Source: Nemertoderma westbladi
Lineage: Eukaryota > Animalia > Xenacoelomorpha
Assembly: GCA_032718475.1 (NCBI GenBank)
Contig: JAUCBJ010006705.1
Location: forward strand, 1 to 64,000
Reading direction: 5' to 3'
Length of the DNA: 64,000 nucleotides
A program made the position numbers and the translations under genes. Positions 13,736 through 64,000 of this stretch are shown piece after piece. The notes beneath the pieces were generated by a model, which saw only the letters and a list, made by a program, of their open reading frames with translations, ran no database searches and was not told the origin of the DNA. The first letter of the stretch is position 1, and each line of letters starts with the position of its first letter.

Positions 13736-13758
13736 AATTGTATTTCCGTTAATCGTAG

Positions 13759-13847
13759 AAAATGAAGAAATAGAACCGGTAGTCGATGACATCGAGGAAC
13801 CCGTAGAACTAACATTTTCGGAGGAAGCCTTGTTCTGGCACAATAAG
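13759..13847 (+). CDS. Second coding exon of the putative GAPR-1/GLIPR2-like gene (start of the CAP domain)
   Basis: Acceptor tatttccgttaatcgtag|AA, open frame (E)NEEIEPVVDDIEEPVELTFSEEALFWHNK, donor AAG|gtaagg. FSEEALFWHNK fits the first CAP helix pattern F..e.L..HN.(YR). Confidence 0.75.
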
Positions 13848-16800
13848 GTAAGGTAGGAGGAAGCCTTGTTCTGGCACAATAAGGTAAGGTAGGAGGAAGC
13901 CTTGTTCCTTCACAATAAGGTAAGGTAGGAGGAAGCCTTGTTCTGGCACAATAAGGTAAGGTAAGGTAGGAGGAAGCCTTGTTCTGGCACAATAAGGTAA
14001 GGTAGGAGGAAGCCTTGTTCTGGCACAATAAGGTAAGGTAGGAGGAAGCCTTGTTCTGGCACTATAAGGTAAGGTAGGAGGAAGCCTTGTTCTGGCACAA
14101 TAAGGTAAGGTAAGGTAGGAGGAAGCCTTGTTCTGGCACAATAAGGTAAGGTAGGAGGAAGCCTTGTTCTGGCACAATAAGGTAAGGTAGGAGGAAGCCT
14201 TGTTCTGGCACAATAAGGTAAGGTAGGAGGAAGCCTTGTTCTGGCACAATAAGGTAAGGTAGGAGGAAGCCTTGTTCTGGTACAATAAGGTAAGGTAGGA
14301 GGAAGCCTTGTTCTGGCACAATAAGGTAAGGTAGGAGGAAGACTTGTTCTGGCACAATAAGGTAAGGTAAGGTAGGAGGAAGCCTTGTTCTGGCACAATA
14401 AGGTAAGGTAAGGTAGGAGGGAGCCTTGTTCTGGCACAATAAGGTAAGGTAAGGTAGGAGGAACCCTTGTTCTGGCACAATAAGGTAGGTTAGGAGGCAG
14501 CCTAGTTCTGGCACAATAAGGTAAGGTAGGAGGAAGCCTTGTTCTGGCACAATAAGGTAAGGTAGGAGGAAGCCTTGTTCTGGCACAATAAGGTAAGGTA
14601 GGAGGAAGCCTTGTTCTGGCACAATAAGGTAAGGTAGGAGGAAGCCTTGTTCTGGCACAATAAGGTAAGGTAGGAGGAAGCCTTGTTCTGGCACAATAAG
14701 GTAAGATAGGAGGAAGCCTTGTTCTGGCACAATAAGGTAAGGTAGGAGGAAGCCTTGTTCTGGCACAATAAGGTAAGGTAGGAGGAAGCCTTGTTCTGGC
14801 ACAATAAGGTAAGGTAGGAGGAAGCCTTGTTCTGGCACAATAAGGTAAGGTAGGAGGAAGCCTTGTTCTGGCACAATAAGGTAAGGTAGGAGGAAGCCTT
14901 GTTCTGGCACAATAAGGTAAGGTAGGAGGAAGCCTTGTTCTGGCACAATAAGGTAAGGTAGGAGGAAGCCTTGTTCTGGCACAATAAGGTAAGGTAGGAG
15001 GAAGCCTTGTTCTGGCACAATAAGGTAAGGTAGGAGGAAGTCTTGTTCTGGCACTATAAGGTAAGGTAGGAGGAAGCCTTGTTCTGGCACAATAAGGTAA
15101 GGTAAGGTAGGTGGAAGCCTTGTTCTGGCACAATAAGGTAAGGTAGGAGGAAGCCTTGTTCTGGCACAATAAGGTAAGGTAGGAGGAAGCCTTGTTCTGG
15201 CACAATAAGGTAAGGTAGGAGGAAGCCTTGTTCTGGCACAATAAGGTAAGGTAGGAGGAAGCCTTGTTCTGGCACAATAAGGTAAGGTAGGAGGAAGCCT
15301 TGTTCTGGCACAATAAGGTAAGGTAGGAGGAAGTCTTGTTCTGGCACTATAAGGTAAGGTAGGAGGAAGCCTTGTTCTGGCACAATAAGGTAAGGTAAGG
15401 TAGGTGGAAGCCTTGTTCTGGCACAATAAGGTAAGGTAGGAGGAAGTCTTGTTCTGGCACTATAAGGTAAGGTAGGAGGAAGCCTTGTTCTGGCACAATA
15501 AGGTAAGGTAAGGTAGGTGGAAGCCTTGTTCTGGCACAATAAGGTAAGGTAGGGGGAAGCCTTGTTCTGGCACAATAAGGTAAGGTAGGAGGAAGCCTTG
15601 TTCTGGCACAATAAGGTAAGGTAAGGTAGGGGGAAGCCTTGTTCTGGCACAATAAGGTAAGGTAGGAGGAATCCTTGTTCTGACACAATAAGGTAAGGTA
15701 GGAGGAAGCCTTGTTCTGGCACAATAAGGTAAGGTAGGAGGAAGTCTTGTTCTGGCACAATAAGGTAAGGTAGGAGGAAGCCTTGTTCTGGCACAATAAG
15801 GTAAGGTAGGAGGAAGCCTTGTTCTGACACAATAAGGTAAGGTAGGAGGAAGCCTTGTTCTGGCACAATAAGGTAAGGTAAGGTAGGAGGAAGCCTTGTT
15901 CTGGCCCAATAAGGTAAGGTAGGAGGAAGCCTTGTTCTGGCACAATAAGGTAAGGTAAGGTAGGAGGAAGCCTTGTTCTGGTACAATAAGGTAAGGTAGG
16001 AGGAAGCCTTGTTCTGGCACAATAAGGTAAGGTAGTAGGAAGCCTTGTTCTGGCACAATAAGGTAAGGTAGGAGGAAGCCTTGTTCTGGCACAATAAGGT
16101 AAGGTAGGAGGAAGCCTTGTTCTGGCACAATAAGGTAAGGTAGGAGGAAGCCTTGTTCTGGCACAATAAGGTAGGTTAGGAGGAAGCCTTGTTCTGGCAC
16201 AATAAGGTAAGGTAGGAGGAAGCCTTGTTCTGGCACAATAAGGTAAGGTAGGAGGAAGCCTTGTTCTGGCACAATAAGGTAAGGTAAGGTAGGAGGAAGC
16301 CTTGTTCTGGCCCAATAAGGTAAGGTAGGAGGAAGCCTTGTTCTGGCACAATAAGGTAAGGTAGGAGGAAGCCTTGTTCTGGCACAATAAGGTAAGGTAA
16401 GGTAGGAGGAAGCCTTGTTCTGGCCCAATAAGGTAAGGTAGGAGGAAGCCTTGTTCTGGCACAATAAGGTAAGGTAAGGTAGGAGGAAGCCTTGTTCTGG
16501 TACAATAAGGTAAGGTAGGAGGAAGCCTTGTTCTGGCACAATAAGGTAAGGTAGTAGGAAGCCTTGTTCTGGCACAATAAGGTAAGGTAGGAGGAAGCCT
16601 TGTTCTGGCACAATAAGGTAAGGTAGGAGGAAGCCTTGTTCTGGCACAATAAGGTAAGGTAGGAGGAAGCCTTGTTCTGGCACAATAAGGTAGGTTAGGA
16701 GGAAGCCTTGTTCTGGCACAATAAGGTAAGGTAGGAGGAAGCCTTGTTCTGGCACAATAAGGTAAGGTAGGAGGAAGCCTTGTTCTGGTACAATAAGGTA

Positions 16801-19800
16801 AGGTAGGAGGAAGCCTTGTTCTGGCACAATAAGGTAAGATAAAGTTGGAGGAAGCCTTGTTCTGGCACAATAAGGTAAGGTAGGAGGAAGCCTTGTTCTG
16901 GCACAATAAGGTAAGGTAGGAGGAAGCCTTGTTCTGGCACAATAAGGTAAGGTAGGAGGAAGCCTTGTTCTGGTACAATAAGGTAAGGTAGGAGGAAGCC
17001 TTGTTCTGGCACAATAAGGTAAGGTAGGAGGAAGCCTTGTTCTGGTACAATAAGGTAAGGTAGGAGGAAGCCTTGTTCTGGCACAATAAGGTAAGGTAGG
17101 AGGAAGCCTTGTTCTGGCACAATAAGGTAAGGTAGGAGGAAGCCTTGTTCTGGCACAATAAGGTAAGGTAGGAGGAAGCCTTGTTCTGGCACAATAAGGT
17201 AAGGTAGGAGGAAGCCTTGTTCTGGCACAATAAGGTAAGGTAGGAGGAAGCCTTGTTCTGGCACAATAAGGTAAGGTAGGAGGAAGCCTTGTTCTGGCAC
17301 AATAAGGTAAGGTAGGAGGAAGCCTTGTTCTGGTACAATAAGGTAAGGTAGGAGGAAGCCTTGTTCTGGCACAATAAGGTAAGGTAGGAGGAAGCCTTGT
17401 TCTGGCACAATAAGGTAAGGTAGGAGGAAGCCTTGTTCTGGCACAATAAGGTAAGGTAGGAGGAAGCCTTGTTCTGGCACAATAAGGTAAGGTAGGAGGA
17501 AGCCTTGTTCTGGCACAATAAGGTAAGGTAGGAGGAAGCCTTGTTCTGGCACAATAAGGTAAGGTAGGAGGAAGCCTTGTTCTGGCACAATAAGGTAAGG
17601 TAGGAGGAAGCCTTGTTCTGGCACAATAAGGTAAGGTAGGAGGAAGCCTTGTTCTGGCACAATAAGGTAAGGTAGGAGGAAGCCTTGTTCTGGCACAATA
17701 AGGTAAGGTAGGAGGAAGCCTTGTTCTGGCACAATAAGGTAAGGTAGGAGGAAGCCTTGTTCTGGCACAATAAGGTAAGGTAGGAGGAAGCCTTGTTCTG
17801 GCACAATAAGGTAAGGTAGGAGGAAGCCTTGTTCTGGCACAATAAGGTAAGGTAGGAGGAAGCCTTGTTCTGGCACAATAAGGTAAGGTAGGAGGAAGCC
17901 TTGTTCTGGCACAATAAGGTAAGGTAGGAGGAAGCCTTGTTCTGGCACAATAAGGTAAGGTAGGAGGAAGCCTTGTTCTGGCACAATAAGGTAAGGTAGG
18001 AGGAAGCCTTGTTCTGGCACAATAAGGTAAGGTAGGAGGAAGCCTTGTTCTGGCACAATAAGGTAAGGTAGGAGGAAGCCTTGTTCTGGCACAATAAGGT
18101 AAGGTAGGAGGAAGCCTTGTTCTGGCACAATAAGGTAAGGTAGGAGGAAGCCTTGTTCTGGCACAATAAGGTAAGGTAGGAGGAAGCCTTGTTCTGGTAC
18201 AATAAGGTAAGGTAGGAGGAAGCCTTGTTCTGGCACAATAAGGTAAGGTAGGAGGAAGCCTTGTTCTGGCACAATAAGGTAAGGTAGGAGGAAGCCTTGT
18301 TCTGGCACAATAAGGTAAGGTAGGAGGAAGCCTTGTTCTGGCACAATAAGGTAAGGTAGGAGGAAGCCTTGTTCTGGCACAATAAGGTAAGGTAGGAGGA
18401 AGCCTTGTTCTGGCACAATAAGGTAAGGTAGGAGGAAGCCTTGTTCTGGCACAATAAGGTAAGGTAGGAGGAAGCCTTGTTCTGGCACAATAAGGTAAGG
18501 TAGGAGGAAGCCTTGTTCTGGCACAATAAGGTAAGGTAGGAGGAAGCCTTGTTCTGGCACAATAAGGTAAGGTAAGGGAGGAGGAAGCCTTGTTCTGGCA
18601 CAATAAGGTAAGGTAGGAGGAAGCCTTGTTCTGGCACAATAAGGTAAGGTAGGAGGAAGCCTTGTTCTGGCACAATAAGGTAAGGTAGGAGGAAGCCTTG
18701 TTCTGGCACAATAAGGTAAGGTAGGAGGAAGCCTTGTTCTGGCACAATAAGGTAAGGTAAGGTAGGAGGAAGCCTTGTTCTGGCACAATAAGGTAAGGTA
18801 AGGTAGGAGAAGCCTTGTTCTGGCACAATAAGGTAAGGTAAGGGAGGAGGAAGCCTTGTTCTGGCACAATAAGGTAAGGTAGGAGGAAGCCTTGTTCTGG
18901 CACAATAAGGTAAGGTAAGGAGGAGGAAGCCTTGTTCTGGCACAATAAGGTAAGGTAGGAGGAAGCCTTGTTCTGGCACAATAAGGTAAGGTAGGAGGAA
19001 GCCTTGTTCTGGCACAATAAGGTAGGTTAGGAGGAAGCCTTGTTCTGGCACAATAAGGTAAGGTAGGAGGAAGCCTTGTTCTGGCACAATAAGGTAAGGT
19101 AGGAGGAAGCCTTGTTCTGGCACAATAAGGTAAGGTAGGAGGAAGCCTTGTTCTGGCACAATAAGGTAAGGTAGGAGGAAGCCTTGTTCTGGCACAATAA
19201 GGTAAGGTAGGAGGAAGCCTTGTTCTGGCACAATAAGGTAAGGTAGGAGGAAGCCTTGTTCTGGCACAATAAGGTAAGGTAGGAGGAAGCCTTGTTCTGG
19301 TACAATAAGGTAAGGTAGGAGGAAGCCTTGTTCTGGCACAATAAGGTAAGGTAAGGTAGGAGGAAGCCTTGTTCTGGCACAATAAGGTAAGGTAGGAGGA
19401 AGCCTTGTTCTGGCACAATAAGGTAAGGTAGGAGGAAGCCTTGTTCTGGCACAATAAGGTAAGGTAGGAGGAAGCCTTGTTCTGGCACAATAAGGTAAGG
19501 TAAGGTAGGAGGAAGCCTTGTTCTGGCACAATAAGGTAAGGTAGGAGGAAGCCTTGTTCTGGCACAATAAGGTAAGGTAAGGTAGGAGGAAGCCTTGTTC
19601 TGGTACAATAAGGTAAGGTAGGAGGAAGCCTTGTTCTGGCACAATAAGGTAAGGTAGGAGGAAGCCTTGTTCTGGCACAATAAGGTAAGGTAAGGTAGGA
19701 GGAAGCCTTGTTCTGGCACAATAAGGTAAGGTAGGAGGAAGCCTTGTTCTGGCACAATAAGGTAAGGTAAGGTAGGAGGAAGCCTTGTTCTGGTACAATA

Positions 19801-22800
19801 AGGTAAGGTAGGAGGAAGCCTTGTTCTGGCACAATAAGGTAAGGTAGGAGGAAGCCTTGTTCTGGCACAATAAGGTAAGGTAGGAGGAAGCCTTGTTCTG
19901 GCACAATAAGGTAAGGTAAGGTAGGAGGAAGCCTTGTTCTGGCACAATAAGGTAAGGTAGGAGGAAGCCTTGTTCTGGCACAATAAGGTAAGGTAAGGTA
20001 GGAGGAAGCCTTGTTCTGGCACAATAAGGTAAGGTAGGAGGAAGCCTTGTTCTGGCACAATAAGGTAAGGTAGGAGGAAGCCTTGTTCTGGTACAATAAG
20101 GTAAGGTAGGAGGAAGCCTTGTTCTGGCACAATAAGGTAAGGTAGGAGGAAGCCTTGTTCTGGCACAATAAGGTAAGGTAGGAGGAAGCCTTGTTCTGGC
20201 ACAATAAGGTAAGGTAGGAGGAAGCCTTGTTCTGGCACAATAAGGTAAGGTAAGTAGGAGGAAGCCTTGTTCTGGCACAATAAGGTAAGGTAGGAGGAAG
20301 CCTTGTTCTGGCACAATAAGGTAAGGTAGGAGGAAGCCTTGTTCTGGAACAATAAGGTAAGGTAGGAGGAAGCCTTGTTCTGGCACAATAAGGTAAGGTA
20401 AGGTAGGAGGAAGCCTTGTTCTGGCACAATAAGGTAAGGTAGGAGGAAGCCTTGTTCTGGCACAATAAGGTAAGGTAAGGTAGGAGGAAGCCTTGTTCTG
20501 GTACAATAAGGTAAGGTAGGAGGAAGCCTTGTTCTGGTACAATAAGGTAAGGTAGGAGGAAGCCTTGTTCTGGCCCAATAAGGTAAGGTAGGAGGAAGCC
20601 TTGTTCTGGCACAATAAGGTAAGGTAAGGTAGGAGGAAGCCTTGTTCTGGCACAATAAGGTAAGGTAGGAGGAAGCCTTGTTCTGGCACAATAAGGTAAG
20701 GTAGGAGGAAGCCTTGTTCTGGCACAATAAGGTAAGGTAGGAGGAAGCCTTGTTCTGGCACAATAAGGTAAGGTAGGAGGAAGCCTTGTTCTGGCACAAT
20801 AAGGTAAGGTAGGAGGAAGCCTTGTTCTGGCACAATAAGGTAAGGTAGGAGGAAGCCTTGTTCTGGCACAATAAGGTAAGGTAGGAGGAAGCCTTGTTCT
20901 GGCACAATAAGGTAAGGTAAGGTAGGAGGGAGCCTTGTTCTGGCACAATAAGGTAAGGTAAGGTAGGAGGAGCCTTGTTCTGGCACAATAAGGTAAGGTT
21001 AGGTAGGAGGAAGCCTTGTTCTGGTACAATAAGGTAAGGTAGGAGGAGGCCTTGTTCTGGAACAATAAGGTAAGGTAGGAGGAAGCCTTGTTCTGGTACA
21101 ATAAGGTAAGGTAGGAGGAAGCCTTGTTCTGGAACAATAAGGTAAGGTAGGAGGAAGCCTTGTTCTGGCACAATAAGGTAAGTTAGGAGGAAGCCTTGTT
21201 CTGGCACAATAAGGTAAGGTAGGAGGAAGCCTTGTTCTGGCACAATAAGGTAAGGTAGGAGGAAGCCTTGTTCTGGTACAATAAGGTAAGGTAGTAGGAA
21301 GCCTTGTTCTGGCACAATAAGGTAAGGTAGGAGGAAGCCTTGTTCTGGTACAATAAGGTAAGGTAGGAGGAAGCCTTGTTCTGGCACAATAAGGTAAGGT
21401 AGGAGGAAGCCTTGTTCTGGCACAATAAGGTAAGGTAGGAGGAAGCCTTGTTCTGGCACAATAAGGTAAGGTAGGAGGAAGCCTTGTTCTGGCACAATAA
21501 GGTAAGGTAAGGTAGGAGGGAGCCTTGTTCTGGCACAATAAGGTAAGGTAAGGTAGGAGGGAGCCTTGTTCTAGCACAATAAGGTAAGGTAAGGTAGGAG
21601 GAAGCCTTGTTCTGGCACAATAAGGTAAGGTAGGAGGAAGCCTTGTTCTGGCACAATAAGGTAAGGTAGGAGGAAGCCTTGTTCTGGTACAATAAGGTAA
21701 GGTAGGAGGAAGCCTTGTTCTGGCACAATAAGGTAAGGTAGTAGGAAGCCTTGTTCTGGCACAATAAGGTAAGGTAGGAGGAAGCCTTGTTCTGGTACAA
21801 TAAGGTAAGGTAGGAGGAAGCCTTGTTCTGGCACAATAAGGTAAGGTAGGAGGAAGCCTTGTTCTGGCACAATAAGGTAAGGTAGGAGGAAGCCTTGTTC
21901 TGGCACAATAAGGTAAGGTAGGAGGAAGCCTTGTTCTGGCACAATAAGGTAAGGTAAGGTAGGAGGGAGCCTTGTTCTGGCACAATAAGGTAAGGTAAGG
22001 TAGGAGGGAGCCTTGTTCTGGCACAATAAGGTAAGGTAAGGTAGGAGGAAGCCTTGTTCTGGTACAATAAGGTAAGGTAGGAGGAGGCCTTGTTCTGGAA
22101 CAATAAGGTAAGGTAGGAGGAAGCCTTGTTCTGGTACAATAAGGTAAGGTAGGAGGAAGCCTTGTTCTGGCACAATAAGGTAAGGTAGGAGGAAGCCTTG
22201 TTCTGGCACAATAAGGTAAGGTAGGAGGAAGCCTTGTTCTGGTACAATAAGGTAAGGTAGGAGGAAGCCTTGTTCTGACACAATAAGGTAAGGTAGGAGG
22301 AAGCCTTGTTCTGGCACAATAAGGTAAGGTAGGAGGAAGCCTTGTTCTGGTACAATAAGGTAAGGTAGGAGGAAGCCTTGTTCTGGTACAATAAGGTAAG
22401 GTAGGAGGAAGCCTTGTTCTGGCACAATAAGGTAAGGTAGGAGGAAGCCTTGTTCTGGCACAATAAGGTAAGGTAGGAGGAAGCCTTGTTCTGGCACAAT
22501 AAGGTAAGGTAGGAGGAAGCCTTGTTCTGGCACAATAAGGTAAGTTAGGAGGAAGCCTTGTTCTGGCACAATAAGGTAAGGTAGGAGGAAGCCTTGTTCT
22601 GGCACAATAAGGTAAGGTAGGAGGAAGCCTTGTTCTGGTACAATAAGGTAAGGTAGGAGGAAGCCTTGTTCTGGCACAATAAGGTAAGGTAGGAGGAAGC
22701 CTTGTTCTGGCACAATAAGGTAAGGTAGGAGGAAGCCTTGTTCTGGCACAATAAGGTAAGTTAGGAGGAAGCCTTGTTCTGGCACAATAAGGTAAGGTAG

Positions 22801-25800
22801 GAGGAAGCCTTGTTCTGGCACAATAAGGTAAGGTAGGAGGAAGCCTTGTTCTGGTACAATAAGGTAAGGTAGTAGGAAGCCTTGTTCTGGCACAATAAGG
22901 TAAGGTAGGAGGAAGCCTTGTTCTGGTACAATAAGGTAAGGTAGGAGGAAGCCTTGTTCTGGCACAATAAGGTAAGGTAGGAGGAAGCCTTGTTCTGGCA
23001 CAATAAGGTAAGGTAGGAGGAAGCCTTGTTCTGGCACAATAAGGTAAGGTAGGAGGAAGCCTTGTTCTGGCACAATAAGGTAAGGTAAGGTAGGAGGGAG
23101 CCTTGTTCTGGCACAATAAGGTAAGGTAAGGTAGGAGGGAGCCTTGTTCTAGCACAATAAGGTAAGGTAAGGTAGGAGGAAGCCTTGTTCTGGCACAATA
23201 AGGTAAGGTAGGAGGAAGCCTTGTTCTGGCACAATAAGGTAAGGTAGGAGGAAGCCTTGTTCTGGTACAATAAGGTAAGGTAGGAGGAAGCCTTGTTCTG
23301 GCACAATAAGGTAAGGTAGTAGGAAGCCTTGTTCTGGCACAATAAGGTAAGGTAGGAGGAAGCCTTGTTCTGGTACAATAAGGTAAGGTAGGAGGAAGCC
23401 TTGTTCTGGCACAATAAGGTAAGGTAGGAGGAAGCCTTGTTCTGGCACAATAAGGTAAGGTAGGAGGAAGCCTTGTTCTGGCACAATAAGGTAAGGTAGG
23501 AGGAAGCCTTGTTCTGGCACAATAAGGTAAGGTAAGGTAGGAGGGAGCCTTGTTCTGGCACAATAAGGTAAGGTAAGGTAGGAGGGAGCCTTGTTCTGGC
23601 ACAATAAGGTAAGGTAAGGTAGGAGGAAGCCTTGTTCTGGTACAATAAGGTAAGGTAGGAGGAGGCCTTGTTCTGGAACAATAAGGTAAGGTAGGAGGAA
23701 GCCTTGTTCTGGTACAATAAGGTAAGGTAGGAGGAAGCCTTGTTCTGGCACAATAAGGTAAGGTAGGAGGAAGCCTTGTTCTGGCACAATAAGGTAAGGT
23801 AGGAGGAAGCCTTGTTCTGGTACAATAAGGTAAGGTAGGAGGAAGCCTTGTTCTGACACAATAAGGTAAGGTAGGAGGAAGCCTTGTTCTGGCACAATAA
23901 GGTAAGATAAGGTAGGAGGGATCCTTGTTCTGGCACAATAAGGTAAGATAAGGTAGGAAGGATCCTTGTTCTGGCACAATAAGGTTATTGTAGGAGGCAG
24001 CCTTGTTCTGGCACAATAATGTAAGGTAGGAGGAAGCCTTGTTCTGGTACAATAAGGTAAGGAAGGAGGAAGCCTTGTTCTGGCACAATAAGGTAAGGTA
24101 AGGTAGGAGGAAGCCTTGTTCTGACACAATAAGGTAAGGTAGGAGGAAGCCTTGTTCTGGCACAATAAGGTAAGATAAGGTAGGAGGGATCCTTGTTCTG
24201 GCACAATAAGGTAAGATAAGGTAGGAAGGATCCTTGTTCTGGCACAATAAGGTTATTGTAGGAGGCAGCCTTGTTCTGGCACAATAATGTAAGGTAGGAG
24301 GAAGCCTTGTTCTGGCACAATAAGGTAAGGTAGGAGGAAGCCTTGTTCTGGCACAATAAGGTAAGATAAGGTAGGAGGAAGCCTTGTTCTGGCACAATAA
24401 GGTAAGATAAGGTAGGAGGGATCCTTGTTCTGGAACAATAAGGTAAGGTAGGAGGAAGCCTTGTTCTGGCACAATAAGGTAAGGTAGGAGGAAGCCTTGT
24501 TCTGGCAAAATAAGGTAAGATAAAGTTGGAGGAAGCCTTGTTCTGGCACAATAAGGTAAGATAAGGTAGGAGGAAGCCTTGTTCTGGCACAATAAGGTAA
24601 GGTAAGGTAGGAGGAAGCCTTGTTCTGGCACAATAAGGTAAGGTAGGAGGAAGCCTTGTTCTGGCACAATAAGGTAAGATAAGGTAGGAGGGATCCTTGT
24701 TCTGGCACAATAAGGTAAGATAAGGTAGGAAGGATCCTTGTTCTGGCACAATAAGGTTATTGTAGGAGGCAGCCTTGTTCTGGCACAATAATGTAAGGTA
24801 GGAGGAAGCCTTGTTCTGGCACAATAAGGTAAGGTAGGAGGAAGCCTTGTTCTGGCACAATAAGGTAAGATAAGGTAGGAGGAAGCCTTGTTCTGGCACA
24901 ATAAGGTAAGATAAGGTAGGAGGGATCCTTGTTCTGGCACAATAAGGTAAGGTAGGAGGAAACCTTGTTCTGGCACAATAAGGTAAGATAAGGTAGGAGG
25001 GATCCTTGTTCTGGCACAATAAGGTAAGGTAGGAGGAAACCTTGTTCTGGCACAATAAGGTAAGGTAGGAGGAAGCCTTGTTCTGGCACAATAAGGTAAG
25101 GTAGGAGGAAGCCTTGTTCTGGCACAATAAGGTAAGGTAGGAGGAAGCCTTGTTCTGGCACAATAAGGTAAGGTAGGAGGAAGCCTTGTTCTGGCACAAT
25201 AAGGTAAGGTAGGATGAAGCCTTGTTCTGGCACAATAAGGTAGGGTAGGAGGAAGCCTTGTTCTGGCACAATAAGGTAAGGTAGGAGGAATCCTTGTTCT
25301 GGCACAATAAGGTAAGGTAAGGTAGGAGGAAGCCTTGTTCTGGCACAATAAGGTAAGGTCGGAGGAAGCCTTGTTCTGGCACAATAAGGTAAGGTAAGGT
25401 AGGATGAAGCCTTGTTCTGGCACAATAAGTTAAGGTAGGAGGAAGCCTTGTTCTGGCACAATAAGGTAAGGTAGGAGGAAGCCTTTTTCTGGCACAATAA
25501 GGTAAGGTAAGGTAGGAGGAAGCCTTGTTCTGGCACAATAAGGTAGGGTAGGAGGAAGCCTTGTTCTGGCACAATAAGGTAAGGTAGGAGGAAGCCTTGT
25601 TCTGGCATAATAAGGTAATGTTGGAGGAAGCCTTGTTCTGGCACAATAAGGTAAGGTAGGAGTAAGCCTTGTTCTGGCCCAATAAGGTAAGGTAGGAGGA
25701 AGCCTTGTTCTGGCACAATAAGGTAAGGTAAGGTAGGAGGAAGCCTTGTTCTGGCACAATAAGGTAAGGTAGGAGGAAGCCTTGTTCTGGCACAATAAGG

Positions 25801-48137: not shown

Positions 48138-48267
48138 GTTTGTTTACACAGTTGAATGTCTACTGCTATTACAGTCTAAGTAAGTCTAGTAATTCAGTAT
48201 TAACTGCTAGCCTAGTAATTAATTACCGATACTGCTACTCAGTGTAGCGTGATATATAATATATTAG

Positions 48268-49469: not shown

Positions 49470-50040
49470 AAATATTACGCTACGCGTACAAACTACTCAA
49501 ACAAAATGCAGACCAAATACTGACAGACTACTATCAAGCTTAAACAAACTACGGTATATGTAGACTCCGAAATGGTTAAGTAGTATGCGTTCTAACCCAG
49601 TAGTACGACTTATTCTTTAGATGGGGGTTTACCTTACAGCAATGGCTGCCCCTACTTCCTAACCATTCTTTATCGGACAGATGCTTTACACACACCGAAA
49701 TTTCCTCAAACCCAACAGCAGCCAGACAACTATCCAGCCTACAAATTATCTAAATAAAATTATACGCTACCCGTACAAACTACACAAACAAAGTATAGAC
49801 CAAACGCTGGCAGACTCCTATCAAGCCTAAATAAACCACAGGACATGCAGACTCCGAAATGGTTAAGTAGTATGCGTTCTAACCCAGTAGTACGACTTAT
49901 TCTTTAGATGGGGGTTTACCTTACAGCAATGGATGCCCCTACTTCCTAACCGTTCTTTATCGGACATACACTCTACATGCACTGCAATCCGTTCAGACCT
50001 AATCAACAGTTAGCCAACAGTCAAGCCTACAAATTATCTG
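49470..50040. repeat. ~287-bp tandem duplication in the 5' leader with a near-identical ~112-bp core
   Basis: Cores at 49566-49677 and 49853-49964. The flanks are more diverged. Confidence 0.9.
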
Positions 50041-50320
50041 TACAATCTGAGCGGGCTTACACGCCTTCTGCTCAATACTGGCCTACAAATAAATAAAACT
50101 GACAGAAATAAGTAAGCTCCAAAAGAAACAAGGGGTGTACAGTCCCTAATCTCTTAAACAGCCTACCGGTATACAATACCACAATCGAATAATACTGCTG
50201 TACCTGTACCGTAAGTAGGTACCGGTCCGGATGATCAGGCAGTCAGGCCTACTGGTTACCGGTCGACCGGTACTTTCTACTAGATTGCTTACACCGCAAT
50301 CCAGAAGCAATATCTGTTAT

Positions 50321-54400: not shown

Positions 54401-57400
54401 GTAGGAGGAAGCCTTGTTCTGGCACAATAAGGTAAGGTAAGGTAGGAGGAAGCCTTGTTCTGGCACAATAAGGTAAGGTAGGAGGAAGCCTTGTTCTGGC
54501 ACAATAAGGTAAGGTAAGGTAGGAGGAAGCCTTGTTCTGGCACAATAAGGTAAGGTAGGAGGAAGCCTTGTTCTGGCACAATAAGGTAAGGTAGGAGGAA
54601 GCCTTGTTCTGGCACAATAAGGTAAGGTAGGAGGAAGCCTTGTTCTGGCACAATAAGGTAAGGTAGGAGGAAGCCTTGTTCTGGCACAATAAGGTAAGGT
54701 AGGAGGAAGCCTTGTTTTGGCACAATAAGTTAAGGTAGGAGGAAGCCTTGTTCTGGCACAATAAGGTAAGGTAGGAGGAAGCCTTGTTCTGGCACAATAA
54801 GGTAAGGTAGGAGGAAGCCTTTTTCTGGCACAATAAGGTAAGGTAAGGTAGGAGGAAGCCTTGTTCTGGCACAATAAGGTACGGTAAGGTAGGAGGAAGC
54901 CTTGTTCTGGCACAATAAGGTAAGGTAGAAGGAAGCCTTGTTCTGGCACAATAAGGTAAGGTAGGAGGAAGCCTTGTTCTGGCACAATAAGGTAAGGTAG
55001 GAGGAAGCCTTGTTCTGGCCCAATAAGGTAAGGTAGGAGGAAGCCTTGTTCTGGCACAATAAGGTAAGGTAGGAGGAAGCCTTGTTCTGACACAATAAGG
55101 TAAGGTAGGAGGAAGCCTTGTTCTGGCACAATAAGGTAAGGTAGGAGGAAGCCTTGTTCTGGCACAATAAGGTAAGGTAGGAGGAAGCCTTGTTCTGGCA
55201 CAATAAGGTAAGGTAGGAGGAAGCCTTGTTCTGGCACAGTAAGGTAAGGTAAGGTAGGAGGAAGCCTTGTTCTGGCACAATAAGGTAAGGTAGGAGGAAG
55301 CCTTGTTCTGGCACAATAATGTAAGGTAGGAGGAAGCCTTGTTCTGGCACAATAAGGTAAGGTAAGGTAGGAGGAAGCCTTGTTCTGGCACAATAAGGTA
55401 AGGTAGGAGGAAGCCTTGTTCTGGCACAATAAGGTAAGGTAAGGTAAGGTAGGAGGAAGCCTTGTTCTGGCACAATAAGGTAAGATAGGAGGAAGCCTTG
55501 TTCTGGCACAATAAGGTAAGGTAAGGTAAGGTAGGAGGAAGCCTTGTTCTGGCACAATAAGGTAAGATAGGAGGAATCCTTATTCTGGCACAATAAGGTA
55601 AAGTAAGGTAGGAGGAAGCCTTGTTCTGGCACAATAAGGTAAGGTAGGAGGAAGCCTTGTTCTGGCACAATAATGTAAGGTAGGAGGAATCCATATTCTG
55701 GCACAATAAGGTAAAGTAAGGTAGGAGGAAGCCTTGTTCTGGCACAATAAGGTAAGGTAGGAGGAAGCCTTGTTCTGGCACAATAATGTAAGGTAGGAGG
55801 AAGCCTTGTTCTGGCACAATAAGGTAAGGTAAGGTAGGAGGAAGCCTTGTTCTGGCACAATAAGGTAAGGTAAGGTAGGAGGAAGCCTTGTTCAGGCACA
55901 ATAACGTAAGGTAGGAGGAAGCCTTGTTCTGGCACAATAAGGTAAGGTAGGAGGAAGCCTTGTTCTGGCACAATAAGGTAAGGTAGGAGGAAGCCTTGTT
56001 CTGGCACAATAAGGTAAGGTAGGAGGAAGCCTTGTTCTGGCACAATAAGGTAAGGTAAGGTAGGAGGAAGCCTTGTTCTGGCACAATAAGGTAAAGTAAG
56101 GTAAGAGGAAGCCTTGTTCTGGCACAATAAGGTAAGGTAAGGTAGGAGGGAGCCTTGTTCAGGCACAATAAGGTAAGGTAGGAGGAAGCCTTGTTCTGGC
56201 ACAATAAGGTAAGGTAGGAGGAAGCCTTGTTCTGGCACAATAAGGTAAGGTAAGGTAAGGTAGGAGGAAGCCTTGTTCTGGCACAATAAGGTAAGATAGG
56301 AGGAATCCTTATTCTGGTACAATAAGGTAAAGTAAGGTAGGAGGAAGCCTTGTTCTGGCACAATAAGGTAAGGTAGGAGGAAGCCTTGTTCTGGCACAAT
56401 AATGTAAGGTAGGAGGAAGCCTTGTTCTGGCACAATAAGGTAAGGTAAGGTAGGAGGAAGCCTTGTTCTGGCACAATAAGGTAAGGTAAGGTAGGAGGAA
56501 GCCTTGTTCAGGCACAATAACGTAAGGTAGGAGGAAGCCTTGTTCTGGCACAATAAGGTAAGGTAGGAGGAAGCCTTGTTCTGGCACAATAAGGTAAGGT
56601 AGGAGGAAGCCTTGTTCTGGCACAATAAGGTAAGGTAGGAGGAAGCCTTGTTCTGGCACAATAAGGTAAGGTAAGGTAGGAGGAAGCCTTGTTCTGGCAC
56701 AATAAGGTAAAGTAAGGTAGGAGGAAGCCTTGTTCTGGCACAATAAGGTAAGGTAAGGTAGGAGGGAGCCTTGTTCAGGCACAATAAGGTAAGGTAGGAG
56801 GAAGCCTTGTTCTGGCACAATAAGGTAAGGTAGGAGGAAGCCTTGTTCTGGCACAATAAGGTAAGGTAGGAGGAAGCCTTGTTCTGGTACAATAAGGTAA
56901 GGTAGGAGGAAGCCTTGTTCTGGCACAATAAGGTAAGGTAGGAGGAAGCCTTGTTCTGGCACAATAAGGTAAGGTAGGAGGAAGCCTTGTTCTGGCACAA
57001 TAAGGTAAGGTAAGGTAGGAGGGAGCCTTGTTCTGGCACAATAAGGTAAGGTAAGGTAGGAGGGAGCCTTGTTCAGGCACAATAAGGTAAGGTAGGAGGA
57101 AGCCTTGTTCTGGCACAATAAGGTAAGGTAGGAGGAAGCCTTGTTCTGGCACAATAAGGTAAGGTAGGAGGAAGCCTTGTTCTGGTACAATAAGGTAAGG
57201 TAGGAGGAAGCCTTGTTCTGGCACAATAAGGTAAGGTAGGAGGAAGCCTTGTTCTGGCACAATAAGGTAAGGTAGGAGGAAGCCTTGTTCTGGCACAATA
57301 AGGTAAGGTAGGAGGAAGCCTTGTTCTGGCACAATAAGGTAAGGTAGGAGGAAGCCTTGTTCTGGCACAATAAGGTAAGGTAGGAGGAAGCCTTGTTCTG

Positions 57401-60400
57401 GCACAATAAGGTAAGGTAGGAGGAAGCCTTGTTCTGGCACAATAAGGTAAGGTAGGAGGAAGCCTTGTTCTGGCACAATAAGGTAAGGTAGGAGGAAGCC
57501 TTGTTCTGGCACAATAAGGTAAGGTAGGAGGGAGCCTTGTTCTGGCACAATAAGGTAAGTTAAGGTAGGAGGGAGCCTTGTTCTGGCACAATAAGGTAAG
57601 GTAGGAGGAAGCCTAGTTCTGGCACAATAAGGTAAGGTAGGAGGAAGCCTTGTTCTGGCACAATAAGGTAAGGTAGGAGGAAGCCTTGTTCTGGCACAAT
57701 AAGGTAAGGTAAGGTAGGAGGGAGCCTTGTTCTGGCACAATAAGGTAAGGTAAGGTAGGAGGGAGCCTTGTTCTGGCACAATAAGGTAAGGTAGGAGGAA
57801 GCCTTGTTCTGGCACAATAAGGTAAGGTAGGAGGAAGCCTTGTTGTGGCACAATAAGGTAAGGTAGGAGGAAGCCTTGTTCTGGCACAATAAGGTAAGGT
57901 AGGAGGAAGCCTTGTTCTGGCACAATAAGGTAAGGTAGGAGGAAGCCTTGTTTTGGCACAATAAGTTAAGGTAGGAGGAAGCCTTGTTCTGGCACAATAA
58001 GGTAAGGTAGGAGGAAGCCTTGTTCTGGCACAATAAGGTAAGGTAGGAGGAAGCCTTGTTCTGGCACAATAAGGTAAGGTAAGGTAGGAGGAAGCCTTGT
58101 TCTGGCACAATAAGGTAAGGTAAGGTAGGAGGAAGCCTTGTTCTGGCACAATAAGGTAAGGTAGGAGGAAGACTTGTTCTGGCACAATAAGGTAAGGTAG
58201 GAGGAAGCCTTGTTCTGGCACAATAAGGTAAGGTAGGAGGAAGCCTTGTTCTGGCACAACAAGGTAAGGTAGGAGGAAGCCTTGTTCTGGCACAATAAGG
58301 TAAGGTAGGAGGAAGCCTTGTTCTGGCACAATAAGGTAAGGTAGGAGGAAGCCTTGTTCTGGCACAATAAGGTAAGGTAGGAGGAAGCCTTGTTCTGGCA
58401 CAATAAGTTAAGGTAGGAGGAAGCCTTGTTCTGGCACAATAAGGTAAGGTAGGAGGAAGCCTTGTTCTGGCACAATAAGGTAAGGTAGGAGGAAGCCTTG
58501 TTCTGGCACAATAAGGTAAGGTAGGAGGAAGCCTTGTTCTGGCACAATAAGGTAAGGTAGGAGGAAGCCTTGTTCTGGCACAATAAGATAAGGTAGGAGG
58601 AAGCCTTGTTCTGGCACAATAAGGTAAGGTAGGAGGAAGCCTTGTTCTGGCACAATAAGGTAAGGTAGGAGGAAGCCTTGTTCTGGCACAATAAGGTAAG
58701 GTAGGAGGAAGCCTTGTTCTGGCACAATAAGGTAAGGTAGGAGGAAGCCTTGTTCTGGCACAATAAGGTAAGGAAAGAGGAAGCCTTGTTCAGGCACAAT
58801 AAGGTAAGGTAGGAGGAAGCCTTGTTCTGGCACAATAAGGTAAGGTAGGAGGAAGCCTTGTTCTGGCACAATAAGGTAAGGTAAGGTAGGAGCGAGCCTT
58901 GTTCTGGCACAATAAGGTAAGGTAAGGTAGGAGGGAGCCTTGTTCTGGCACAATAAGGTAAGGTAGGAGGAAGCCTTGTTCTGGCACAATAAGGTAAGGT
59001 AGGAGGAAGCCTTGTTCTGGCACAATAAGGTAAGGTAGGAGGAAGCCTTGTTCTGGCACATTAAGGTAAGGTAAGGTAGGAGGAAGCCTTGTTCTGGCAC
59101 AATAAGGTAAGGTGGGAGGAAGCCTTGTTCTGGCACAATAAGGTAAGGTAGGAGGAAGCCTTGTTCTGGCACAATAAGGTAATGTAAGGTAGGAGGAAGC
59201 CTTGTTCTGGCACAATAAGGTAAGGTAGGAGGAAGCCTTGTTCTGGCACAATAAGGTAAGGTAGGAGGAAGCCTTGTTCTGGCACAATAAGGTAAGGTAG
59301 GAGGAAGCCTTGTTCTGGCACAATAAGGTAAGGTAAGGTAGGAGGAAGCCTTGTTCAGGCACAATAAGGTAAGGTAGGAGGAAGCCTTGTTCTGGCACAA
59401 TAAGGTAAGGTAAGGTAGGAGCGAGCCTTGTTCTGGCACAATAAGGTAAGGTAAGGTAGGAGCGAGCCTTGTTCTGGCACAATAAGGTAAGGTAAGGTAG
59501 GAGGGAGCCTTGTTCTGGCACAATAAGGTAAGGTAGGAGGAAGCCTTGTTCTGGCACAATAAGGTAAGGTCGGAGGAAGCCTTGTTCTGGCACAATAAGG
59601 TAAGGTAAGGTAGGAGGGAGCCTTGTTCTGGCACAATAAGGTAAGGTAGGAGGAAGCCTTGTTCTGGCACAATAAGGTAAGGTAGGAGGAAGCCTTGTTC
59701 TGGCACAATAAGGTAAGGTAGGAGGAAGCCTTGTTCTGGCACAATAAGGTAAGGTAGGAGGAAGCCTTGTTCTGGCACAATAAGGTAAGGTAAGGTAGGA
59801 GGGAGCCTTGTTCTGGCACAATAAGGTAAGGTAAGGTAGGAGGAAGCCTTGTTCTGGCACAATAAGGTAAGGAAGGAGGAATCCTTGTTCTGGCACAATA
59901 AGGTAAGGTAGGAGGAAGCCTTGTTCTGGCACAATAAGGTAAGGTAAGAGGAAGCCTTGTTCTGGCACAATAAGGTAAGGTAAGGTAGGAGGGAGCCTTG
60001 TTCTGGCACAATAAGGTAAGGTAAGGTAGGAGGGAGCCTTGTTCTGGCACAATAAGGTAAGGTAAGGTAGGAGGAAGCCTTGTTCTGGCACAATAAGGTA
60101 AGGAAGGAGGAAGCCTTGTTCTGGCACAATAAGGTAAGGTAGGAGGAAGCCTTGTTCTGGCAATATAAGGTAAGGTAGGAGGAAGCCTTGTTCTCGCACA
60201 ATAAGGTAAGGTAAGGTAGGAGGAAGCCTTGTTCTGGCACTATAAGGTAAGGTAGGAGGAAGCCTTGTTCTGGCACTATAAGGTAAGGTAGGAGGAAGCC
60301 TTTTTCTGGCACAATAAGGTAAGGTAAGGTAGGAGGAAGCCTTGTTCTGGCACAATAAGGTAAGGTAGGAGGAAGCCTTGTTCTGGTACAATAAGGTAAG

Positions 60401-63400
60401 GTAGGAGGGAGCCTTGTTCTGGTACAATAAGGTAAGGTAGGAGGAAGCCTTGTTCTGGCACAATAAGGTAAGGTAGGAGGAAGCCTTGTTCTGGTACAAT
60501 AAGGTAAGGTAGGAGGAAGCCTTGTTCTGGTACAATAAGGTAAGGTAGGAGGAAGCCTTGTTCTGGCACAATAAGGTAAGGTAGGAGGAAGCCTTGTTCT
60601 GGTACAATAAGGTAAGGTAGGAGGAAGCCTTGTTCTGGCAATATAAGGTAAGGTAGGAGGAAGCCTTGTTCTCGCACAATAAGGTAAGGTAAGGTAGGAG
60701 GAAGCCTTGTTCTGGCACTATAAGGTAAGGTAGGAGGAAGCCTTGTTCTGGCACAATAAGGTAAGGTAGGAGGAAGCCTTGTTCTGGCACAATAAGGTAA
60801 GGTAGGAGGAAGCCTTGTTCTGGCACAATAAGGTAAGGTAGGAGGAAGCCTTATTCTGGCACAATAAGGTAAGGTAGGAGGAAGCCTTGTTCTCGCACAA
60901 TAAGGTAAGGTAAGGTAGGAGGAAGCCTTGTTCTGGCACTATAAGGTAAGGTAGGAGGAAGCCTTGTTCTGGCACAATAAGGTAAGGTAGGAGGAAGCCT
61001 TGTTCTGGCACAATAAGGTAAGGTAGGAGGAAGCCTTGTTCTGGCACAATAAGGTAAGGTAGGAGGAAGCCTTGTTCTGGTACAATAAGGTAAGGTAGGA
61101 GGAAGCCTTGTTCTGGCAATATAAGGTAAGGTAGGAGGAAGCCTTGTTCTCGCACAATAAGGTAAGGTAAGGTAGGAGGAAGCCTTGTTCTGGCACTATA
61201 AGGTAAGGTAGGAGGAAGCCTTGTTCTGGCACAATAAGGTAAGGTAGGAGGAAGCCTTGTTCTGGCACAATAAGGTAAGGTAGGAGGAAGCCTTGTTCTG
61301 GCACAATAAGGTAAGGTAGGAGGAAGCCTTATTCTGGCACAATAAGGTAAGGTAGGAGGAAGCCTTGTTCTGGCACTATAAGGTAAGGTAGGAGGAAGCC
61401 TTGTTCTGGCACAATAAGGTAAGTTAGGAGGAAGCCTTGTTCTGGCACAATAAGGTAAGGTAGGAGGAAGCCTTGTTCTGGCACAATAAGGTAAGGTAGG
61501 AGGAAGCCTTGTTCTGGCACAATAAGGTAAGTTAGGAGGAAGCCTTGTTCTGGCACAATAAGGTAAGGTAGGAGGAAGCCTTGTTCTGGCACTATAAGGT
61601 AAGGTAGGAGGAAGCCTTGTTCTGGCACAATAAGGTAAGTTAGGAGGAAGCCTTGTTCTGGCACAATAAGGTAAGGTAGGAGGAAGCCTTGTTCTGGCAC
61701 AATAAGGTAAGGTAGGAGGAAGCCTTGTTCTGGCACTATAAGGTAAGGTAGGAGGAAGCCTTGTTCTGGCACAATAAGGTAAGGTAGGAGGAAGCCTTAT
61801 TCTGGCACAATAAGGTAAGGTAGGAGGAAGACTTGTTCTGGCACAATAAGGTAAGGTAGGAGGAAGCCTTGTTCTGGCACAATAAGGTAAGGTAGGAGGA
61901 AGCCTTGTTCTGGCACAATAAGGTAAGGTAGGAGGAAGCCTTGTTCTGGCACAATAAGGTAAGTTAGGAGGAAGCCGTGTTCTGGTACAATAAGGTAAGG
62001 TAGGAGGAAGCCTTGTTCTGGCACAATAAGGTAAGTTAGGAGGAAGCCTTGTTCTGGTACAATAAGGTAAGGTAGGAGGAAGCCTTGTTCTGGCACAATA
62101 AGGTAAGGTAGGAGGAAGCCTTGTTCTGGCACAATAAGGTAAGGTAGGAGGAAGCCTTGTTCTGGCACAATAAGGTAAGGTAGGAGAAAGCCTTGTTCTG
62201 GCACAATAAGGTAAGGTAGGAGGAAGCCTTGTTCTGGCACAATAAGGTAAGGTAGGAGGAAGCCTTGTTCTGGCACAATAAGGTAAGGTAGGAGGAAGCC
62301 TTGTTCTGGCACAATAAGGTAAGGTAGGAGGAAGCCTTGTTCTGGCACAATAAGGTAAGGTAGGAGGAAGCCTTGTTCTGGCACAATAAGGTAAGGTAGG
62401 AGGAAGCCTTGTTCTGGCACAATAAGGTAAGGTAGGAGGAAGCCTTGTTCTGGCACAATAAGGTAAGGTAGGAGGAAGCCTTGTTCTGGCACAATAAGGT
62501 AAGTTAGGAGGAAGCCTTGTTCTGGTACAATAAGGTAAGGTAGGAGGAAGCCTTGTTCTGGCACAATAAGGTAAGTTAGGAGGAAGCCTTGTTCTGGTAC
62601 AATAAGGCAAGGTAGGAGGAAGCCTTGTTCTGGCACAATAAGGTAAGGTAGGAGGAAGACTTGTTCTGGCACAATAAGGTAAGGTAGGAGGAAGCCTTGT
62701 TCTGGCACTATAAGGTAAGGTAGGAGGAAGCCTTGTTCTGGCACAATAAGGTAAGGTAAGGTAGGAGGAAGCCTTGTTCTGGCACAATAAGGTAAGGTAG
62801 GAGGAAGCCTTATTCTGGCACAATAAGGTAAGGTAGGAGGAAGCCTTGTTCTGGCACTATAAGGTAAGGTAGGAGGAAGCCTTGTTCTGGCACAATAAGG
62901 TAAGGTAAGGTAGGAGGAAGCCTTGTTCTGGCACAATAAGGTAAGGTAGGAGGAAGCCTTATTCTGGCACAATAAGGTAAGGTAGGAGGAAGCCTTGTTC
63001 TGGCACAATAAGGTAAGGTAGGAGGAAGCCTTGTTCTGGCACAATAAGGTAAGGTAGGAGGAAGCCTTGTTCTGGCACTATAAGGTAAGGTAGGAGGAAG
63101 CCTTGTTCTGGCACAATAAGGTAAGGTAAGGTAGGAGGAAGCCTTGTTCTGGCACAATAAGGTAAGGTAGGAGGAAGTCTTGTTCTGGCACTATAAGGTA
63201 AGGTAGGAGGAAGCCTTGTTCTGGCACAATAAGGTAAGGTAAGGTAGGAGGAAGCCTTATTCTGGCACAATAAGGTAAGGTAAGAGGAAGCCTTGTTCTG
63301 GCACAATAAGGTAAAGTAAGGGAGGAGGAAGCCTTGTTCTGGCACAATAAGGTAAGGTAGGAGGAAGCCTTATTCTGGCACAATAAGGTAAAGTAAGGGA

Positions 63401-64000
63401 GGAGGAAGCCTTGTTCTGGTACAATAAGGTAAGGTAGGAGGAAGCCTTGTTCTGGCACAATAAGGTAAGGTAAGGTAGGAGGAAGCCTTGTTCTGGCACA
63501 ATAAGGTAAGGTGGGAGGAAGCCTTGTTCTGGCACTATAAGGTAAGGTAAGGTAGGAGGAAGCCTTGTTCTGGCACAACATGGTAAGGTAGGAGGAAGCC
63601 TTGTTCTGGCACAATAAGGTAAGGTAGGAGGAAGCCTTGTTCTGGCACAATAAGGTAAGGTAAGGTAGGAGGAAGCCTTGTTCTGGCACAATAAAGTAAG
63701 GTAAGGTAGGAGGAAGCCTTGTTCTGGCACAATAAGGTAAGGTAGGAGGAAGCCTTGTTCTGGCCCAATAAGGTAAGGTAGGAGGAAGCCTTGTTCTGGC
63801 ACAATAAGGTAAGGTTGGAGGAAGCCTTGTTCTGGCACAATAAGGTAAGGTAGGAGGAAGCCTTGTTCTGGCACAATAAGGTAAGGTCGGAGGAAGCCTT
63901 GTTCTGGCACAATAAGGTAAGGTAAGGTAGGAGGAAGCCTTGTTCTGGCACAATAAGGTAAGGTAAGGTAGGAGGAAGCCTTGTTCTGGCACAGGTGGGA
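51480..64000. repeat. 36-bp satellite, right block (at least 12.5 kb; probably continues beyond the window)
   Basis: Same unit and variant pattern as the left block, resuming in register after the TSD. Confidence 0.99.

What the first reader, a model, noticed from the sequence alone, without database searches (positions are those of the whole stretch)
13759..64000. A >31-kb satellite made of a host exon's 3' end plus its 5' splice site
Seen: the first satellite unit is the end of an 89-nt open exon (...TTT TCG GAG GAA GCC TTG TTC TGG CAC AAT AAG|gtaaggta). Every unit is therefore 27 nt of coding sequence (EEALFWHNK) plus GTAAGGTAG. From array length there are roughly 800-850 copies, each with 2-4 donor-like sites (AAG|GTAAGG, AAG|GTAGGA, and perfect AAG|GTAAGT in some variants). 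Only the first donor keeps the frame. The donor 5 nt downstream frameshifts, and any later one includes the in-frame TAG in GTA AGG TAG. Inference: the gene has an intron of more than 50 kb packed with decoy donors identical to the real one. This could act as a U1 snRNP sink, a recursive-splicing ladder (each unit has a CCTTGTTCT pyrimidine run before an AG|GT junction), or an NMD-based expression dial set by copy number. It may also simply have killed the gene.
Basis: partly seen in the sequence, partly recalled or inferred. Interest (0 to 1): 0.9.

Follow-up and report, generated by a model that had tools for sequence, protein, structure and literature searches.

The report
Giant splice-donor satellite in animal gene
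A 36-base piece that likely spans the end of an exon and its splice signal is repeated at least 842 times in a row (over 31 kb, later split by a retrotransposon); it is a very large example of a repeat type known from human and lancelet genes, and the cell likely still splices at the first copy.

Summary
The repeat is real: 842 units of 36/41/46 bp at 13820-32811 and 51480-64000 (31.5 kb, running off the window). Unit 1 equals the array consensus and ends an 89-nt open segment, 13759-13847. That segment is likely exon 2 of a myristoylated GAPR-1/CAP-like gene. It ranks first of 234 phase-compatible acceptors by acidity, and its tail ranks 2 of 32,854 against a CAP helix-1 matrix. HMM searches found no homolog and no RNA run was listed, so splicing is untested. 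The 18.7-kb gap is one BEL/Pao LTR element (5-bp target duplication, LTRs 98.5% alike) inserted into an already continuous array. The kind is known: human F7, CBS, 6-16, LMNB2, PDGFA and lancelet 'mirage' repeats. This scan's notes hold eight look-alikes on other DNA (up to about 377 copies). The proposed functions get no support: donor bases mutate as often as the rest (1.36% vs 1.45%), and the internal AG|GT is a poor acceptor. Best reading: neutral runaway expansion, first donor used. A dead gene is the main rival. What is new is the size and the internal time marker.

The parts
6153..6249 (+). Likely first coding exon: MGCGGSS N-myristoylation-type start, then an acidic stretch; phase-1 donor AAG|GTAACT at 6250
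   Evidence: GC 0.51 against 0.28 on both flanks; the only MGCxxS start among 1,099 ATGs scanned; donor matches 7 of 9 consensus bases. Splicing not observed.
7485..11152 (+). Decayed, internally deleted relative of the LTR element inside candidate intron 1 (part of the LTR plus pieces of the accessory ORFs)
   Evidence: 71% DNA identity to the LTR over 892 columns; tblastn 39-71% to the accessory ORFs in several frames
13457..13753 (.). Unrelated AT-rich 16-bp minisatellite that ends just before the candidate acceptor
13759..13847 (+). Likely coding exon 2 (89 nt, phase 1 to phase 0): acidic linker, then the probable first helix of a CAP domain ending in HNK
   Evidence: top of 234 phase-compatible acceptors by D/E content; one of only two AG|GTRAG donors among the candidates; rank 2 of 32,854 on a CAP helix-1 matrix. 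No HMM-level homolog.
13820..13856 (+). First repeat unit: exon end, donor at 13847|13848, weaker donor 5 nt on, in-frame TAG at 13854
13820..32811 (+). Satellite, part 1: 509 units, 18,992 bp, with multi-unit duplications of up to 31 units
32812..51479 (-). BEL/Pao LTR retrotransposon, 18,668 bp, antisense to the host gene, inserted inside one 41-bp unit with a 5-bp target duplication. LTRs at 32812-33971 and 50321-51479. Its gag-pol (about 47214 to 39949) has one in-frame stop at 43831-43833; its accessory coding region (38336 to 34050) has one at 36321-36323
   Evidence: TG..CA ends, target duplication, 98.5% LTR identity; Peptidase_A17, DUF1759, DUF5641, Integrase_H2C2; (empty-site copy)
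51480..64000 (+). Satellite, part 2: 333 units, 12,521 bp, runs off the window

Best explanation
The array is a tandem repeat of a 36-bp piece that likely began as a duplication of an exon end plus its splice donor, grew by repeated multi-unit copying, was later split by a BEL/Pao retrotransposon, and is likely spliced out as one intron of more than 50 kb from the first donor, with no function of its own. Shown: the unit, its identity with the open segment's end, block duplications, the order array first and insertion second, no extra conservation of donor bases. Inferred: that 13759-13847 is exon 2 of a myristoylated GAPR-1/CAP-like gene whose remaining exons lie beyond 64000. Also inferred: only unit 1 sits at normal exon distance from a real acceptor, so exon definition and 5'-to-3' donor choice pick it, as shown experimentally for human F7. 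Any transcript using a later donor would carry a frameshift or the TAG at 13854 and would be degraded. The array could grow because extra copies land on the intron side and leave the mRNA unchanged.
For: Unit 1 equals the consensus and the array's left edge is sharp. The candidate exon ranks first of 234 acceptors by acidity and is phase-compatible with an acidic, myristoylation-type first exon. Its tail scores 10.4 bits on a CAP helix-1 matrix, rank 2 of 32,854; one real CAP protein, P0115, also has W-H-N there. Human GAPR-1 has the same E-x-L-x-x-H-N spacing (alignment) and is N-myristoylated (PMC13690689, start of abstract). The rest of a CAP domain is not detected in the window (best E 2.8). 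A 12-unit run across the insertion, with 5 rare variants, matches an uninterrupted copy at 52742-53203. Donor bases are not more conserved than the rest. Precedent: F7, LMNB2 and PDGFA use only the first donor (PMC1557585), and lancelet mirages do not disturb splicing (PMC3087553). The stretch upstream of the array holds seven other tandem arrays, so the genome is repeat-prone.
Against: No transcript evidence for either junction. No homolog of either exon by Pfam, PDB or two large protein searches with exon 2. In a full-length CAP profile search the exon-2 segment was not among the top 8 of 1,312 segments. The matrix score is at the 14th percentile of true CAP motifs, a chance peptide from the retrotransposon scores higher (11.6), and without the H and N columns the rank falls to 449. 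The CAP idea was chosen after seeing the sequence. CBS and 6-16 use two further pseudo-donors, and one earlier scan note reports use of the last donor only, so first-donor use is not universal. All precedents have 26 copies or fewer, against 842 or more here.
Confidence: 0.6

Rival explanations
1. Same origin, but the gene is now dead or nearly silent: a 50-kb-plus intron with hundreds of donors and an 18.7-kb retrotransposon stops productive transcripts, and the array drifts in a pseudogene.
For: The inserted element carries 23 AATAAA hexamers on the host's sense strand. Intact exons prove little: at the 0.6% divergence seen between the LTRs outside one patch, 186 coding bases would mostly stay intact without selection. 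Read-through of the donor stops after two codons. CAP genes are often multi-copy (recalled).
Against: Both exons keep open frames, matching phase and canonical sites beside a frameshifted older insertion in intron 1. The element is antisense to the gene. Satellite-filled giant introns are expressed in Drosophila (PMC6508621, search listing only).
Confidence: 0.17
2. The array acts as an attenuator: the first few decoys, or sheer intron length, divert part of the transcripts to decay, so expression falls as the array grows.
For: Every alternative donor gives a frameshift or stop. Thirteen AAG|GT sites lie within 300 nt of the acceptor. CBS and 6-16 use nearby pseudo-donors. ABCA7 VNTR length correlates with lower expression and exon skipping (PMC6660495, passages).
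Against: Distal copies are out of exon-definition range, so copy number should not tune donor choice. No conservation of donor bases. The first perfect donor is 6.4 kb into the array.
Confidence: 0.08
3. The 89-nt exon is an illusion, and the satellite arose or landed here with a unit that merely resembles a donor.
For: No HMM-level homolog and no RNA support. The motif F-x-E-E-A-L-x-W-H-N matched 16 places in two collections and none read as a CAP protein. The acceptor's pyrimidine content is modest (0.65).
Against: The acidity ranking, phase match, myristoylation-type first exon and CAP-matrix rank all point to the same place.
Confidence: 0.08
4. The unit is wholly exonic. The frame reads H-N-K-V-R, which fits the CAP motif H-N-x-hydrophobic-R, so the duplication of an AG|GT inside the exon would itself have created the intron (Rogers model), removed from the first GT to the last AG, possibly in recursive steps.
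For: Read-through gives HNKVR before the stop. Tandem duplication of exonic AGGT is a demonstrated route of intron gain (PMC3443670, passages). Splicing donor 1 to any unit's AAG would rebuild the same junction.
Against: Any GTAAG(A/G) donor reads V-R, so the fit is expected under the ordinary model. It needs V before R (3 of 101 CAP motifs) and Y after R (1 of 101). The acceptor would be AAG without a tract next to it, and every AG but the last leads into the stop.
Confidence: 0.05
5. The array is kept as a U1 snRNP sink or a recursive-splicing ladder.
For: 829 of 842 first donors keep GT and 715 are AAG|GTAAGG, 7 of 9 consensus matches.
Against: That uniformity is the same at non-donor positions. 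A at -3 and the displaced pyrimidine run argue against a recursive site. About 2,000 sites on one transient pre-mRNA are few against the nuclear U1 pool (recalled, not computed).
Confidence: 0.02

Closest known systems
Human F7 intron 7 37-bp VNTR, and the CBS, 6-16, LMNB2 and PDGFA minisatellites (PMC1557585: abstract, Introduction and Results passages, whole Discussion)
   Same: First monomer spans the exon-intron border, so identical pseudo-donors follow the real one; similar unit size
   Different: 5-26 copies there, 842 or more here. The unit here is mostly exonic (27-28 of 36 nt; F7 has 4 of 37). Each unit has 2-4 donor-like sites and an in-frame stop. Splicing was measured there and not here.
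Lancelet 'mirage' repeats in Adh3 and globin genes (PMC3087553: passages)
   Same: Invertebrate tandem duplications of an exon-intron boundary, units of 10-160 bp, block-wise turnover, reported not to disturb splicing
   Different: 3-6 units in the globin case against a 31.5-kb array; no retrotransposon inside; somatic instability reported for Adh3 and untested here
ABCA7 intron 18 VNTR (PMC6660495: passages)
   Same: Large intronic tandem repeat (to more than 10 kb) whose length can affect splicing and expression
   Different: The passages read do not say its unit copies the donor; a length effect is shown there and untested here
Satellite-filled giant introns of Drosophila Y genes (PMC6508621: search listing and start of abstract only)
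   Same: Intron made huge by satellite DNA
   Different: Megabase scale; nothing in the listing ties those satellites to the gene's own splice site
Intron gain by tandem genomic duplication of AGGT (PMC3443670: passages)
   Same: The unit contains AG|GT and the frame reads through it for two codons
   Different: Requires a wholly exonic unit and use of the last AG; the residue frequencies and weak acceptor argue against it here

Membership tests
Exon-intron-boundary minisatellite (F7-type / mirage) | Head-to-tail tandem array | tested here: met
Exon-intron-boundary minisatellite (F7-type / mirage) | First monomer spans a real exon-intron border | tested here: inconclusive
   Sequence signals favour it; no transcript or ortholog found
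Exon-intron-boundary minisatellite (F7-type / mirage) | Later units repeat the donor sequence exactly | tested here: met
   715 of 842 have the same 9 bases as unit 1; 829 keep GT
Exon-intron-boundary minisatellite (F7-type / mirage) | First (or first few) donors are the ones used | not testable with these tools
Exon-intron-boundary minisatellite (F7-type / mirage) | Copy number varies between alleles | not testable with these tools
   One haplotype only; no genome held
CAP superfamily, GAPR-1/GLIPR2-like host gene | Full CAP domain (PF00188) | not testable with these tools
   Only about 13 residues could lie in the window; Pfam and a custom profile give no hit
CAP superfamily, GAPR-1/GLIPR2-like host gene | Helix-1 motif ending H-N | tested here: inconclusive
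   Rank 2 of 32,854; 14th percentile of 106 true motifs; rank 449 without the H and N columns
CAP superfamily, GAPR-1/GLIPR2-like host gene | N-myristoylation start and no signal peptide | tested here: met
   MGCGGSS followed by acidic residues; 18 of 1,099 ATGs fit a loose recalled motif, 1 fits MGCxxS. Met for the candidate exon; its link to exon 2 is inferred.
Recursive splice site | YAG|GT with an adjacent pyrimidine tract (definition recalled) | tested here: not met
   Junction is AAG|GT; the tract ends 9 nt upstream; the unit's only YAG is followed by GA, with pyrimidine fraction 0.24
BEL/Pao LTR retrotransposon (the insert) | TG..CA LTRs with a 5-bp target duplication | tested here: met
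BEL/Pao LTR retrotransposon (the insert) | Pao-type gag-pol domains | tested here: met
   Peptidase_A17 1.6e-36, DUF5641 1.3e-19, DUF1759 1.2e-10, Integrase_H2C2 4.4e-07

The most novel reading that the evidence does not exclude
The satellite is the intron. A tandem duplication of an AG|GT inside a CAP-domain exon (H-N-K|V-R) created a new intron, which then grew to more than 50 kb and is removed from the first GT to the last unit's AG, perhaps stepwise because each step rebuilds the same junction. That would be intron birth and intron gigantism caught in one young locus.
Probability: 0.05. Interest if true: 0.75.

Novelty: new member of a known kind. Interest (0 to 1): 0.3.

Why it matters
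If the gene is expressed, this is a natural stress test of 5' splice-site choice: one real donor followed by more than 800 identical ones, about thirty times the largest case in the papers read and over twice the largest in this scan's notes. The retrotransposon, with near-identical LTRs and an empty-site copy, gives an internal time marker for how fast such an array grows and homogenises. It does not reveal a new mechanism, and nothing here shows a function.

Tried and rejected
No genome is held, so the array's far end, the next exon and other loci of the 36-mer could not be examined. RNA run search on 5650-13856: no RNA holder listed; this is not evidence either way, and no reads could be laid. 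Exon-2 homolog searches: none at E<=10 among 4 candidates; one hit among 1.84 billion representatives, a repeat-derived junk ORF; none in PDB or Pfam. Exon 1 was scanned only against Pfam and the 120 CAP proteins. The protein atlas did not complete. The satellite core has 0 exact matches in metagenome contigs, which says little about an animal genome. A degenerate exon-2 motif gave 10 + 6 matches, 0 of 16 CAP. G-quadruplex idea: two-tier GG motifs are dense (22 per kb) but G4Hunter peaks at 0.84 and folding with G4 allowed changes nothing; rejected. Hairpin masking the donor: an 8-bp stem is predicted in each unit but is no better than shuffles (z -0.44 as RNA, +0.28 as DNA); the dimer's z of -2.19 uses shuffles that do not keep the repeat, so it is not counted. 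The minus-strand ORFs of up to 1,883 aa over the array arise because that strand of the unit has no stop; rejected as genes. Rfam: nothing in 1-14200. A nested-element reading of the gap was rejected: no second LTR pair inside it. Literature searches listed no boundary array of this size; the library lacks most subscription papers, and no supplements were read.

Full report
Observation. TRF reports a 36-bp array at 13820-32806 and 51479-63993. A script finds 842 unit cores at up to 5 mismatches, 509 and 333 in the two parts, 31,513 bp in all, with the second part running off the window. Most units are 36 bp; 41- and 46-bp units carry one or two extra AAGGT pentamers. The core of the first unit is the array consensus, and no core lies elsewhere in the window on either strand. 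The segment 13759-13847 is 89 nt, open, follows a TAG and ends AAG|GTAAGG; the first in-frame stop after it is TAG at 13854.

Is 13759-13847 an exon? There is no direct proof. The RNA search listed no run, no genome is held, and exon 2 found no homolog in Pfam, PDB or two large protein searches. The indirect evidence agrees with itself. A candidate first exon at 6153-6249 starts MGCGGSS, the only MGCxxS among 1,099 ATGs scanned, has GC 0.51 against 0.28 on both sides, and ends in a phase-1 donor. Among 1,181 open, phase-compatible AG..GT segments from 234 acceptors downstream, the most acidic begins at 13759, and only two donors (13847 and 12574) have the form AG|GTRAG. The acidity criterion was chosen after seeing both exons.

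To test the CAP idea I collected 120 CAP proteins (the query alignment held the exon-2 peptide as a misaligned row) and built a 13-column matrix from 106 distinct helix-1 motifs found in 102 of them. The exon's last 13 residues score 10.4 bits, rank 2 of 32,854 stop-free 13-mers outside the array. Against this: true motifs have a leave-one-out median of 17.2, the exon sits at their 14th percentile, a retrotransposon peptide scores 11.6, and the rank drops to 449 without the H and N columns. A full-length profile does not place the exon among the top 8 of 1,312 segments and finds no CAP domain anywhere in the window (best E 2.8). One real CAP protein, P0115, has W-H-N at this place. Human GAPR-1 shows the same E-x-L-x-x-H-N spacing and is myristoylated (PMC13690689, start of abstract). 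I put the exon at about 0.85-0.9 likely and the GAPR-1-like identity somewhat lower. If both hold, the intron is at least 50,153 nt.

The gap. 32812-51479 is one element. It has 1,160- and 1,159-bp terminal repeats with TG..CA ends and a 5-bp target duplication; they are 98.5% alike, with 7 isolated substitutions and one 14-column patch. Pfam gives Pao-type domains on the minus strand, and no second LTR pair lies inside. With the element set aside, the interrupted unit is an ordinary 41-bp variant with four intact copies in part 2, and a run of 12 units across the site, 5 of them rare variants, matches 52742-53203. So the array was continuous and already duplicating in blocks before the insertion. 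Thirteen repeated runs of 8 to 31 units show block-wise growth. Mean core divergence from the consensus is 0.2-3.1% per 50 units. Array and insertion are both young; no rate is available to date them. BEL/Pao and Penelope-like elements point to an animal (recalled); I did not identify it further.

Function. If decoy donors were selected for or against, their bases should vary less or more than the rest. In the 622 36-bp units the 9 donor positions differ from consensus at 1.36% and the other 27 at 1.45% (p=0.93); copies are not independent, so this test is coarse. For recursion the junction should be YAG|GT next to a pyrimidine tract (recalled). Here it is AAG|GT, the tract ends 9 nt earlier, and the unit's only YAG is not followed by GT. 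Thirteen AAG|GT sites lie within 300 nt of the acceptor; the site 5 nt downstream of the real donor is weaker (6 of 9 against 7 of 9), and the first perfect donor is at 20247. G-quadruplex and hairpin ideas failed their controls.

The frame reads HNKVR before the stop, like the CAP motif H-N-x-hydrophobic-R, so the unit could be wholly exonic and the array a new intron made by tandem duplication of AG|GT (PMC3443670, passages). But any GTAAG(A/G) donor reads V-R, and this reading needs V before R and Y after it, seen in 3 and 1 of 101 motifs. I give it 0.05; the far end of the array would decide it.

What is known. PMC1557585 (abstract, passages, whole Discussion) describes F7 intron 7, where a 37-bp unit spans the border and only the most upstream donor is used unless a perfect site competes. 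It lists LMNB2 and PDGFA (first donor only) and CBS and 6-16 (two more donors used). PMC3087553 (passages) calls such repeats 'mirages' in lancelets and reports that they do not disturb splicing. PMC6660495 (passages) gives ABCA7 as a case where intronic repeat length tracks expression and exon skipping. This scan's notes list eight look-alikes on other genomes, six on the donor side, up to about 377 copies; these are unchecked notes, and I checked only the papers they led to. Searches listed no boundary array of this size.

Verdict. Observation confirmed; origin likely as proposed; function not supported. Best reading, 0.6: neutral runaway expansion on the intron side of a real donor, with the first donor used. 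Rivals: dead gene 0.17, attenuator 0.08, no exon 0.08, intron birth 0.05, U1 sink or ladder 0.02. New member of a known kind, notable for size and for the insertion that orders its history. Interest 0.3.

Noticed in passing
window 34050-38336 (minus strand): The BEL/Pao element carries a large accessory coding region after pol (671 aa and 756 aa, separated by one in-frame stop). No Pfam or PHROG family above cut-off; the 756-aa piece has no relative at E<=0.001 among 6,593 candidates of similar length and only a weak zinc-knuckle hint. A decayed relative at 8876-11152 shares it. An uncharacterised cargo gene of a retrotransposon family; possibly more novel than the satellite.
   Followed up: partly
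window 43831-43833 and 36321-36323 (minus strand): Both long coding regions of the young element are each broken by a single in-frame TGA with the frame open on both sides. Mutation or programmed read-through; not tested.
   Followed up: no
window 7485-11152: Decayed, internally deleted relative of the same LTR family in candidate intron 1, in the opposite orientation; no second LTR detected.
   Followed up: partly
window 2182-4304 and 4342-5566: Penelope-like element (RT-like ORF recognised by eye; GIY-YIG E=0.0055, below cut-off) followed by 24 near-perfect copies of a 51-bp unit, open in frame on both strands.
   Followed up: no
window 6486-6897 and 11986-13083: Two palindromic minisatellites (29-bp and 22/52-bp units) that match their own reverse complement.
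   Followed up: no
window 108-935 (minus strand): 275-aa open frame with no Pfam hit; by eye it resembles HECT-like ORFs of invertebrate mobile elements (recalled, untested).
   Followed up: no
window 7013-7489: 158-aa ORF with a weak HTH_21 match (E=0.0056), likely a transposase fragment cut by the LTR relative at 7485.
   Followed up: no
window 49460-50039, 48287-48512, 39091-39393: Internal tandem duplications (about 290, 123 and 140-170 bp) in the non-coding parts of the retrotransposon.
   Followed up: no
L018-L030, L034, L035: Giant-virus-type contigs of the viral collection encode GAPR-1/PR-1-like CAP proteins.
   Followed up: no
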